Shown one piece after another: positions 24,724 to 26,716 of a stretch of 64,000 nucleotides of DNA. This stretch comes from the human T2T-CHM13v2.0 reference genome, Homo sapiens. Position 1 is the first letter of the stretch; each line of letters begins with the position of its first letter. A program made the position numbers and the translations under genes. The stretch is taken from assembly GCF_009914755.1 (NCBI RefSeq), contig NC_060936.1. One strand, written 5' to 3'. Below the pieces are notes generated by a model that had not been told where the DNA came from, did not search any database, and saw nothing but the letters and a program-made list of their open reading frames with translations.

Positions 24724-26716
24724 TTTCTTTTTTTTTTTTCTTTTTTTGAGACGGAGTCTCGCTCTGTCACCCAGGCTGGAGTGCAGTGGTGCGATCTCAG
24801 CTCACTGCAACCTCTGCCTCTTGGGTTCACGCCATTCTCCTGCCTCAGTCTCCTGAGTAGCTGGGCTACAGGTGCCCGCCACCATGCCTGGCTATTTTTT
24901 ATATTTTTAGTAGAGATGGGGTTTCACCGTGTTAGCCAGTGTCTCGATCTCCTGACCTTGTCATTCTCCCATCTCGGCCTCCCAAAGTGCTGGGATTACA
25001 GGTGTGAGCCACCATGCCCGGCCAATACATAGTAAATTTTCTATACTGATAAACACTGCTAGAAGAAACTGGGGCTGGAAATTTCAAAGAGGGATGGAAA
25101 GTCAGGGTCCAGTTCTGGACATTTCTTAGAAAGGCAGCCACGGCCGGATGCGGTGGCTCATGCCTGTAATCACGTCACCGGCTCATGCGGTGGCTCAAGC
25201 ACTTTGGGAGGCTGAGGTGGGAGGATCATTTGAGGTCAGGAGTTCCAGACCAGCCTGGTCAACATGATGAACCCCCATCTTTACTAAAAATACAAAAATT
25301 AGCCAGGTGTGGTGGTGCATGCTTGTAATCCCAGCTACTCAGGAGGCTGAGGCAGGAGAATTGTTTGAACCCAGGAGCCAGAGGTTGCAGTGAACTGATA
25401 CTGCGCCACTGCACTCCAGCCCGGGTGACAGAGTGAGATTCCATCACAAAAAAGAAAAAAAAAAAAAAAAAGGCAGCTGCTAGGCCGAGCACGGTGGCTC
25501 ACGCTTGTAATCCCAGCACTTTGGGAGGCCAAGGCAGGCGGATCACCTTCGGTCAGGAGTTCAAGACCAGCCTGGCCAACGTGGTGAAATCCTGTCTCTA
25601 CTAAAAATACAAAAAATTTGCGGGGCGTGGTGGCTCGTACCTGTAATTTCAGCTACTTGGGAAGCCGAGGCAAGAGAATCACTTGAACCTGGCAGGCAGA
25701 GGCTGCAGCGAGCCGAGATCATGCTGCCACACTCCAGCCTGGGTGACAGAGCGAGACTTCGTCTCCAAAAAAAAAAAAAAAAAAAAAAGGCAGATACTGG
25801 GGACAGCAGGACACAGCAAAGGAGCAGCACAGCCCGGATCATGGAGGGAAAACAGAGCAGCCCTGCTGGAAGGAAGCAGTGCTCAGGTTGCGAAGTGAAG
25901 AAAGGCTCAGGATGAAGAGACACCAAGACTGGCCAGAGCTAGAAAGTGTCTAGCCCTTGGAAACTTCAATTACCATGGAAATAGCTTCACTCCCACTTTT
26001 AGAGGCTATGGGAGATCCTCATCTTTTCAGGAAAAAATAAAAATGAAAAGTCAAAGCAACAGGGCAATCCAAATCCATCCTTTACTTAGAAGCCTTCCTG
26101 AGCTGAATGGCTATTTTCTCAATCTCACCTTTGCCCTACCTCGGCTGGAAGCACAGGAAGCAAGAAAGCTGACGTTTCCAAGAATGGGTAAGAACATAAT
26201 ATTTGCAGTATTTATCCATCCTTTTCATGCCTAGATTTTGTCCTTTTCTATGCCCCATGCCAACAAGCTGGCTTCTCTTCCTTTATGGCTCCTCCTTCTT
26301 CCTGCCGCATACTCTTGTCACCCTAAGAATTTACCCTAGACAAAAGGATCTAGAGGCAAAAATGCTTTTCTGTGTCTTCTGTAGGGAAAGCGGAAGAAAA
26401 GGGAAGGTTGTTGGTCTTTTTTTTTTTTCTTTTTTTTTGAGACAGAGTCTTGCTCTGTCGCCCAGGCATATGCACTGGCGTGACCTTAGCTCACTGCAAC
26501 CTCTGCCTCCTGGGTTCAGGCAATTCTCCTGCCTCAGCCACCCGAGTGGCTGGGATTACAGGCGCATGCCACCATGGCCGGCTAATTTTTGTATTTTTAG
26601 TGGAGATGGGATTTCGCCATATTGTCCAGGCCGGTCTCAAACTCCTGACCTCAGGTGATCCGCCCGCCTCAGCCTCCCAAAGTGCTAGGACAACAGGTTT
26701 GAGCCACTGTGCCGGT
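24724..26716. repeat. Alus at 24724-25024 (-), 25142-25471 (+), 25483-25788 (+), 26417-26716 (-)
   Basis: Alu consensus with poly-A tails and TSDs. Confidence 0.92.
25045..25870 (-). pseudogene. ApoN/ApoF-family 5' gene fragment (signal peptide and start of propeptide) interrupted by two Alus
   Basis: Acceptor cttccttccag is followed by [19 protein letters not shown] (ATG about 25842). After removing the Alus it continues [27 protein letters not shown] (25141-25060). This resembles mammalian ApoN N-termini as recalled. The rest of the CDS was not found. Confidence 0.65.

What the first reader, a model, noticed from the sequence alone, without database searches (positions are those of the whole stretch)
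25045..25870. Second apolipoprotein relic: ApoN-like signal peptide hit twice by Alus at one site
Seen: [19 protein letters not shown] runs into an Alu tail, and the frame resumes as [27 protein letters not shown] after two Alus. The target site occurs three times on +: AAAGGCAGCCAC (about 25130), AAAGGCAGCTGC (about 25469) and AAAGGCAGATAC (about 25786). Inference: two successive L1-mediated insertions hit the same codons near the likely signal-peptide cleavage site. This leader differs from the one at about 23.8 kb, so the interval holds at least two dead family members. That points to an ancestral APOF-(APOF-like)-(APON-like) cluster next to TIMELESS.
Basis: partly seen in the sequence, partly recalled or inferred. 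Interest (0 to 1): 0.7.

Follow-up and report, generated by a model that had tools for sequence, protein, structure and literature searches.

The report
Third dead ApoN copy beside TIMELESS
This is the broken front end of an apolipoprotein N gene, cut by two Alu insertions at one spot and missing most of its coding sequence; it is one of five dead copies next to APOF that likely arose by an old tandem triplication, so it is an ordinary pseudogene that mainly corrects the map of how humans likely lost ApoN.

Summary
Confirmed. With both Alus excised, the frame matches bovine ApoN residues 1-34 at 25/34. The target site occurs three times, at the Alu junctions. Homology stops at codon 33-34. The rest of the coding sequence is not in 23.9-25.0 kb; about 0.85-1.0 kb is deleted. 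The intron donor reads AT, not GT. The locus holds three tandem APOF-type + ApoN-type pairs, two carrying copies of the TIMELESS 3' end: live APOF and five relics. RefSeq's 'APONP' is APOF-type. The three true ApoN relics (N1, N2 and this one, N3) have no row in the gene table supplied. N2 is the best-preserved copy (176/245 to lemur ApoN). N1 and N2 share a 512-column tract at 91% identity, likely gene conversion. Whether the Alus killed N3 or landed in a dead or redundant copy cannot be ordered from human sequence alone. Verdict: a new unprocessed pseudogene fragment of a known gene; modest interest.

The parts
25798..25842 (-). ApoN codons 1-15 (ATG at 25842), hydrophobic signal-peptide core
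   Evidence: tblastn bovine ApoN 1-19 at 25842-25786, 84%, E 1.5e-5; hydropathy
25085..25141 (-). ApoN codons 16-34; predicted signal cleavage region; homology ends here
   Evidence: tblastn bovine ApoN 16-34, 63%, E 0.038; 43-44/56 nt to N1 and N2
25130..25141 (+). Target-site copy C (5' of the first Alu), preceded by a TT/AGAA endonuclease-type site
25142..25468 (+). Alu 1 with A-tail, antisense to the relic; AluS-type; carries a 26-nt locally templated insert at 25172-25197
   Evidence: 7.6% non-CpG divergence from the local Alu consensus, n=237; insert; subfamily label recalled
25469..25482 (+). Target-site copy B, between the two Alus
25483..25785 (+). Alu 2 with A-tail, antisense to the relic; AluS-type
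   Evidence: 9.1% non-CpG divergence, n=243; subfamily label recalled
25786..25799 (+). Target-site copy A (3' of the second Alu)
25843..25862 (-). Inferred 5' untranslated part of ApoN exon 2
   Evidence: Inferred from the N-terminal extension of P0013 and the acceptor sequence
25863..26022 (-). Inferred 160-nt ApoN intron; acceptor intact, donor reads AT instead of GT; its 3' part lies in an island 92-93% identical to N1 and N2
26023..26145 (-). Inferred former ApoN exon 1, overlapped from 26058 upward by the annotated 3' end of TIMELESS
   Evidence: P0013 extension matches N2 (score 59, shuffle max 39); the N3 match alone is not significant (31 vs 36) and is placed by DNA alignment
26081..26086 (-). 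AGTAAA hexamer 23 nt before the annotated TIMELESS 3' end; N1 and N2 have AGCAAA here
25043..25084 (-). DNA just past the deletion junction; likely intergenic sequence from beyond the ApoN stop
   Evidence: 25090-24562 without Alu 3 aligns to -12149..-12413, 153/207, score 137 vs shuffle max 75; the junction-proximal part alone is borderline, 61 vs 62
24710..25042 (-). Alu 3 with a 19-nt target-site duplication, in intergenic DNA past the deletion
21668..24272 (-).
26733..27663 (-). TIMELESS 3' end; decayed copies sit upstream of N1 and N2 and mark the duplicated unit
   Evidence: 477/653 to cassette 2 (389 vs shuffle max 141) and 487/700 to cassette 1 (296 vs 128); 27457-27663 to -2851..-2637, E 4e-11

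Best explanation
The feature is a dead 5' fragment of an ApoN gene (33 codons, intron and upstream DNA) interrupted by two Alus at one target site, and it is likely the third copy of an old tandem triplication of an APOF + ApoN + TIMELESS-3'-end unit, likely already dead or redundant when the Alus arrived. Shown: ApoN identity of codons 1-34; a triple target site with A-tails; no further ApoN coding sequence downstream; an AT donor; three APOF/ApoN pairs. Inferred: unequal crossing-over made the cassettes early in or before primate evolution (upstream flanks 67-72% identical). L1 endonuclease then cut the same site twice, because the first insertion leaves the site or an A-tail in place. A single deletion of 0.85-1.0 kb removed codons 35 onward. 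N2 was probably the last working human-lineage ApoN and died by a frameshift that a gelada gene model shares. The stub makes no protein. Its former exon 1 may now supply the distal TIMELESS poly(A) signal.
For: 25/34 to bovine ApoN; APOF matches the leader only at E 0.83. A genome-wide DNA search finds only itself, N1 (91%) and N2 (87%). Upstream homology to N2 and N1 over 631 and 543 columns, E 1.5e-95 and 5.9e-87. TIMELESS 3' copies sit beside N1 and N2. Three independent lesions in N3. Its partner F3 is heavily decayed: 74/161, 4 frameshifts, 3 stops. Alus are depleted from coding sequence (0 observed, 5.4-11 expected; PMC3783187 table passage), so fixing two in a needed exon is unlikely. 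No named intact simian ApoN among 59 hits.
Against: The stub is well preserved: 27/33 to the consensus of 48 non-human rows (median 25; N2 28/33). This fits death near the time of the Alus, or refreshing by conversion, rather than very early death. The order of the three lesions cannot be read from one genome. The deletion's far breakpoint is approximate. The date of the triplication rests on flank divergence and weak trees: N3 is unresolved, and F2 and F3 join as long branches. No non-human DNA was available.
Confidence: 0.7

Rival explanations
1. Same anatomy, but N3 was still a working ApoN gene in the simian stem and the first Alu, landing at the end of the signal peptide, was the killing lesion; the second Alu, the deletion and the donor change followed.
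For: N3 keeps 27/33 consensus residues, with only 3 seen in at most 1 of 48 rows. Its tree branch (0.19-0.24) is like N2's and far shorter than those of F2, F3 or N1 (0.6-0.9). It holds the position next to intact TIMELESS. Alu divergence fits the main amplification peak of 30-50 My (PMC554112 passage).
Against: Only 33 codons. The 92-93% island upstream suggests conversion could have refreshed the stub. Two other lethal lesions exist. N2 could have covered the function.
Confidence: 0.22
2. The 117-nt stretch before the ATG is still under selection (for example as an enhancer) in all three copies, so the relic is partly functional DNA rather than a product of gene conversion.
For: 117/118 identity N1-N2 and 108-109/117 to N3, against 67-72% further upstream. 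No permutation of 5000 reached the 130-nt window with at most 1 mismatch.
Against: High N1-N2 identity continues through coding sequence, including 29/31 four-fold sites. It includes a frameshifting insertion that both appear to share. N1 is 93/112 to lemur in its first half and 43/114 in its second, as expected if N2 overwrote it. No Rfam family comes near threshold (10 matches, best E 0.22). The supplied table lists no RefSeq functional element here.
Confidence: 0.15
3. The peptide is a chance hydrophobic frame beside Alu tails.
For: Each half alone is short; the second half has E 0.038.
Against: Joined score 127 vs shuffle max 40; over 500 columns of DNA homology to two other ApoN relics.
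Confidence: 0.01

Closest known systems
Apolipoprotein N (bovine 'ovarian and testicular apolipoprotein N', P0010; mouse Apon; PF15148 family)
   Same: Leader 25/34 identical to bovine and 22/33 to lemur; same inferred two-exon layout; lies upstream of APOF.
   Different: Only 33-34 of 254 codons remain; no PF15148 domain, no mature peptide; two Alus; AT donor.
The human ApoN pseudogene mentioned in print (PMC3282742 passage: a frameshift gives a stop before the mature protein)
   Same: Human ApoN is dead, next to APOF.
   Different: That description fits N2 or N1, which have frameshifts near codon 42-46, not N3. The passage speaks of one pseudogene; there are three.
RefSeq APONP (-13564..-12862)
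   Same: Same cluster and Pfam family.
   Different: It is APOF-type: human APOF E 5e-22, no bovine ApoN hit at E<1; APOF side of a 100/100 split. It lies 38 kb from N3.
Tandem Alu insertions at a re-used L1 endonuclease site (El-Sawy and Deininger 2005, seen only as a reference title; discussed in PMC3783187 passages)
   Same: Two same-orientation Alus, A-tails and a triplicated target site.
   Different: Nothing in mechanism. The same layout recurs in N2 with a retrocopy plus an Alu.

Membership tests
ApoN protein-coding gene | N-terminal leader closer to ApoN than to ApoF | tested here: met
   Bovine ApoN 1-19 E 1.5e-5 vs APOF E 0.83; ApoN side of the tree
ApoN protein-coding gene | PF15148 domain (starts at residue 53-58 of intact ApoN) | tested here: not met
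   No PF15148 match at 25-26 kb; domain start
ApoN protein-coding gene | Open frame of about 254 codons with proprotein and mature parts | tested here: not met
   Homology ends at codon 33-34; stop after 54 codons even with the Alus excised
ApoN protein-coding gene | Secreted, HDL-associated product | not testable with these tools
   Described for intact ApoN in PMC3282742 and PMC8438545 passages
Unprocessed (duplicated) pseudogene of ApoN | Keeps intron and upstream flank of the parent layout | tested here: met
   540-630 columns of upstream homology; inferred 160-nt intron
Unprocessed (duplicated) pseudogene of ApoN | Disabling lesions | tested here: met
   Two Alus in codons 16-19, deletion, AT donor
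Unprocessed (duplicated) pseudogene of ApoN | Position syntenic with non-primate ApoN | not testable with these tools
   No non-human genomic DNA is held for this genome. Fused ApoN-APOF models in tarsier, pangolin and desman show adjacency to APOF only
Unprocessed (duplicated) pseudogene of ApoN | No productive transcript | not testable with these tools
   No RNA data
L1-mediated tandem Alu insertion | Target-site duplications, A-tails and a TT/AAAA-like nick site | tested here: met
   Three site copies, two A-tails, TT/AGAA; motif from PMC3783187 passage
L1-mediated tandem Alu insertion | Order and subfamily of the two Alus | tested here: inconclusive
   7.6% vs 9.1% divergence on about 240 sites does not separate them; each site copy is one change from the median 4-mer; no subfamily library was available

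The most novel reading that the evidence does not exclude
The human lineage carried three ApoN genes from an old triplication and lost them separately. N3, the copy in the ancestral position beside TIMELESS, worked until the simian stem and was killed by an Alu in its signal peptide. Its dead first exon was then taken over as the distal poly(A) site of TIMELESS through an AGCAAA to AGTAAA change. The official APONP label sits on an APOF paralogue.
Probability: 0.2. Interest if true: 0.55.

Novelty: new member of a known kind. Interest (0 to 1): 0.35.

Why it matters
It is a small but concrete correction. The human APOF region holds five dead family copies, not one. The name APONP appears to be on the wrong paralogue, and the true ApoN relics lack rows in the supplied table. 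That matters to anyone dating the loss of ApoN, an HDL-associated protein of other mammals that has been suggested to overlap in function with ApoF (PMC3282742 passage). It also matters when comparing mouse ApoF knockouts, which keep ApoN, with humans. The three relics make the loss datable with primate genomes. If TIMELESS's distal poly(A) signal arose inside dead ApoN exon 1, that is a neat, testable case of reuse.

Tried and rejected
Remaining ApoN coding sequence in 23.9-25.0 kb: no tblastn hit at E<1 with bovine or lemur ApoN. Global alignments of that stretch to the N1/N2 coding regions were gap-ridden noise. An Alu-Alu recombination cause for the deletion: the junction is about 44 nt from the nearest target-site copies and not inside an Alu. 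An RNA gene in the conserved island: 10 Rfam matches, all far below gathering score. Ordering the two Alus by target-site similarity or divergence: not resolved. Placing N3 on a tree: unresolved. An N1+N2+N3 clade is rejected at p-AU 0.022 and an all-primate clade is not (p 0.29), but the groups were named after a first tree was seen and conversion confounds N1-N2. Trees used hand-picked named rows: 27 non-human rows, 26, 15, out of 178 proteins held. Relic TIMELESS coding exons upstream: no protein-level hit, only DNA-level. Stretch 24250-24600: no significant match to cassette 1 or 2 beyond its first 40 nt or so; unexplained. The chr4 PF15148 match (E 6.1) was treated as noise. No structure prediction was run; a 33-residue stub does not warrant it. 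O'Bryan 2004 is not held and was not read.

Full report
Observation. On the minus strand an ATG at 25842 opens a hydrophobic frame that runs into the A-tail of an Alu at 25483-25785. A second Alu lies at 25142-25468, and the frame resumes at 25141. The target-site copies start at 25130, 25469 and 25786. Their 8-nt core occurs 10 times on both strands of the window, three times exactly at these junctions. A TT/AGAA site precedes the first copy, close to the TT/AAAA endonuclease motif (PMC3783187, passages).

Identity. A PF15148 search of the human genome gave 8 matches, 7 in this cluster. One of these, translated by reference, found 31 mammalian ApoN-type proteins, including bovine 'ovarian and testicular apolipoprotein N'. 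With the Alus excised by coordinate, the frame matches bovine ApoN 1-34 at 25/34 (score 127, shuffle maximum 40 of 200). 29 of 31 proteins beat their shuffle maximum. That model kept one Alu base at the join; the corrected join gave the same 33 residues. APOF matches the leader only at E 0.83. The insertion site is codons 16-19, where hydropathy falls; the cleavage point is predicted, no signal-peptide predictor was run.

The rest is deleted. Neither bovine nor lemur ApoN hits 23.9-25.0 kb at E<1. DNA from 25090 to 24562, without a third Alu, aligns to intergenic DNA about 230 nt past the stop of another ApoN relic (153/207; score 137 vs 75 in 300 shuffles). The part nearest the junction alone is borderline (61 vs 62), so the deletion is 0.85-1.0 kb. 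An N-terminally extended ApoN frame from an unnamed record (P0013) matches upstream DNA of N2 (59 vs shuffle maximum 39; the N3 match alone, 31 vs 36, is not significant). This implies a first exon and a 160-nt intron. N2 has a GT donor there; N3 has AT at 26022 and N1 lacks it.

The cluster. Self-comparison of chr12 from -33 kb to +27.5 kb shows three tandem units. Unit 1: APOF, then ApoN relic N1 (-26661..-25946). Unit 2: the annotated APONP, then ApoN relic N2 (-11921..-6471). Unit 3: APOF-type relic F3 (21668-24272), then N3, the finding. Upstream of N1 and N2 lie decayed copies of the TIMELESS 3' end (487/700 and 477/653, scores 296 and 389 vs shuffle maxima 128 and 141 of 60; also E 4e-11). 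So the duplicated unit was likely APOF + ApoN + TIMELESS 3' end. A genome-wide DNA search with the leader finds only N3, N1 and N2. APONP is APOF-type: APOF hits it at E 5e-22, and the hit ends at -13564, the annotated boundary. Bovine ApoN has no hit there at E<1 and lemur ApoN E 0.27. It falls on the APOF side of a 100/100 split. N1, N2, N3 and F3 have no rows in the table supplied; other annotations were not available.

History. Upstream flanks of the three N copies are 67-72% identical (K2P 0.37-0.44), and no Alu insertion was seen at a shared position in the aligned stretches. That points to an old triplication; by recalled neutral rates it is at or before the primate root. Trees are weak: N1 and N2 pair (85-96 bootstrap), N3 is unplaced, and F2 and F3 meet as long branches. 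An N1+N2+N3 clade is rejected at p-AU 0.022; an all-primate clade is not (0.29). The groups were chosen after a first tree. At residue 15, N1, N2, lemur, loris and galago share L (4 of 48 non-human rows, the fourth a jerboa), while N3 has P (22 of 48). N2 is best preserved (176/245 to lemur, 2 frameshifts, 1 stop); N1 is 136/226, F2 110/230 and F3 74/161. A gelada gene model (P0003) runs in the same shifted frame as N2, so that frameshift is likely older than the ape-monkey split. Among 59 ApoN hits the named intact primate proteins are lemur, loris and galago; no named intact simian one appears. Clusters show one name and many rows are unnamed, so this is weak evidence. N1 and N2 are 467/512 identical from the intron to about codon 115, against 206/275 and 193/278 on either side (bounds chosen after looking). 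They share 29/31 four-fold sites, and no permutation of 5000 matched the 130-nt near-perfect window. N1 is 93/112 to lemur in its first half and 43/114 in its second. Conversion from N2 to N1 is the simplest reading. N3's 108-109/117 island may be an older conversion tract or selection; this is not resolved.

Did the Alus kill N3? The two Alus are 7.6% and 9.1% from a local consensus of 72 copies (range 2.9-20.9%). They lack the changes I recall as AluJ or AluY diagnostics, so they are AluS-type by recall, in line with the 30-50 My peak (PMC554112, passages). Their order is unresolved: either order gives this layout, and each site copy is one change from the median. N3 has two other lethal lesions, N2 could have covered the function, and Alus rarely persist in coding sequence (0 observed vs 5.4-11 expected). 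I therefore favour dead-or-redundant first. Against that, the stub keeps 27/33 consensus residues (median of 48 rows 25), which allows late death by Alu.

TIMELESS. The annotated 3' end (26058) lies inside inferred ApoN exon 1. An AGTAAA hexamer at 26081-26086 is 23 nt before it, there is no AATAAA in 25000-27481 on that strand, and N1 and N2 read AGCAAA at this place. Reuse of the dead exon as a poly(A) site is an inference, untested.

Literature. PMC3282742 (passages) says apoN is a human pseudogene through a frameshift and lies 12 kb upstream of ApoF in mouse. PMC8438545 and PMC4276287 (passages) summarise O'Bryan 2004, which is not held. PMC3808870, PMC3272032, PMC6854765 and PMC4348566 (passages) added nothing on this locus. 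'APONP' is in 0 papers. ApoN terms gave no hits in the text or the one held supplement of PMC2864566, or in the one held supplement of PMC10195156; supplements not held could list it. Eight searches (listings only, apart from the papers named) showed no description of the triplication or of this relic. Most subscription journals are not covered.

Verdict. A real unprocessed pseudogene fragment of ApoN, absent from the supplied annotation, with a textbook tandem Alu insertion. It is not a member of the ApoN protein family in the functional sense (domain and frame tests not met). New member of a known kind; interest 0.35, mostly for the corrected map of the cluster.

Noticed in passing
window -13564..-12862 (L005): RefSeq APONP is an APOF-type relic, not ApoN-type; the annotated end equals the end of the APOF protein match.
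   Followed up: yes
window -26661..-25946 and -11921..-6471 (L003/L007, L002/L004, L011): Two true ApoN relics (N1, N2) without rows in the supplied table; N2 is near full length.
   Followed up: yes
window -11530..-7127 (L011): N2 is split near codon 220 by LOC100128676, a retrocopy with a TBCC domain (PF07986, E 3e-28), plus an Alu at the same target site, again present three times; another Alu lies a few codons on. Same double-hit layout as in the finding.
   Followed up: partly
window -26320..-25790 vs the matching part of N2: A 512-column tract at 91% identity between N1 and N2, including a frameshifting insertion that both appear to share; likely gene conversion from N2 to N1.
   Followed up: yes
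window 26058-26145: The annotated TIMELESS 3' end overlaps inferred ApoN exon 1 and has a variant AGTAAA signal absent from the paralogues.
   Followed up: partly
window 25172-25197: A 26-nt insert in Alu 1 built from copies of neighbouring Alu sequence, like a templated repair patch.
   Followed up: no
window 21887-23340, 19527-20755, 6354-7446: Related GC-rich repeats, one splitting F3; they resemble an ERV1-type solo LTR by recall; family not tested.
   Followed up: no
P0019, P0027, P0115, P0088: Gene models in tarsier, pangolin, desman and horse fuse ApoN sequence to APOF (the horse one is named Timeless), suggesting read-through or mis-joined models along the cluster.
   Followed up: no
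window 24272-24560: About 300 nt in unit 3 without a significant counterpart in units 1 and 2; origin unknown.
   Followed up: partly
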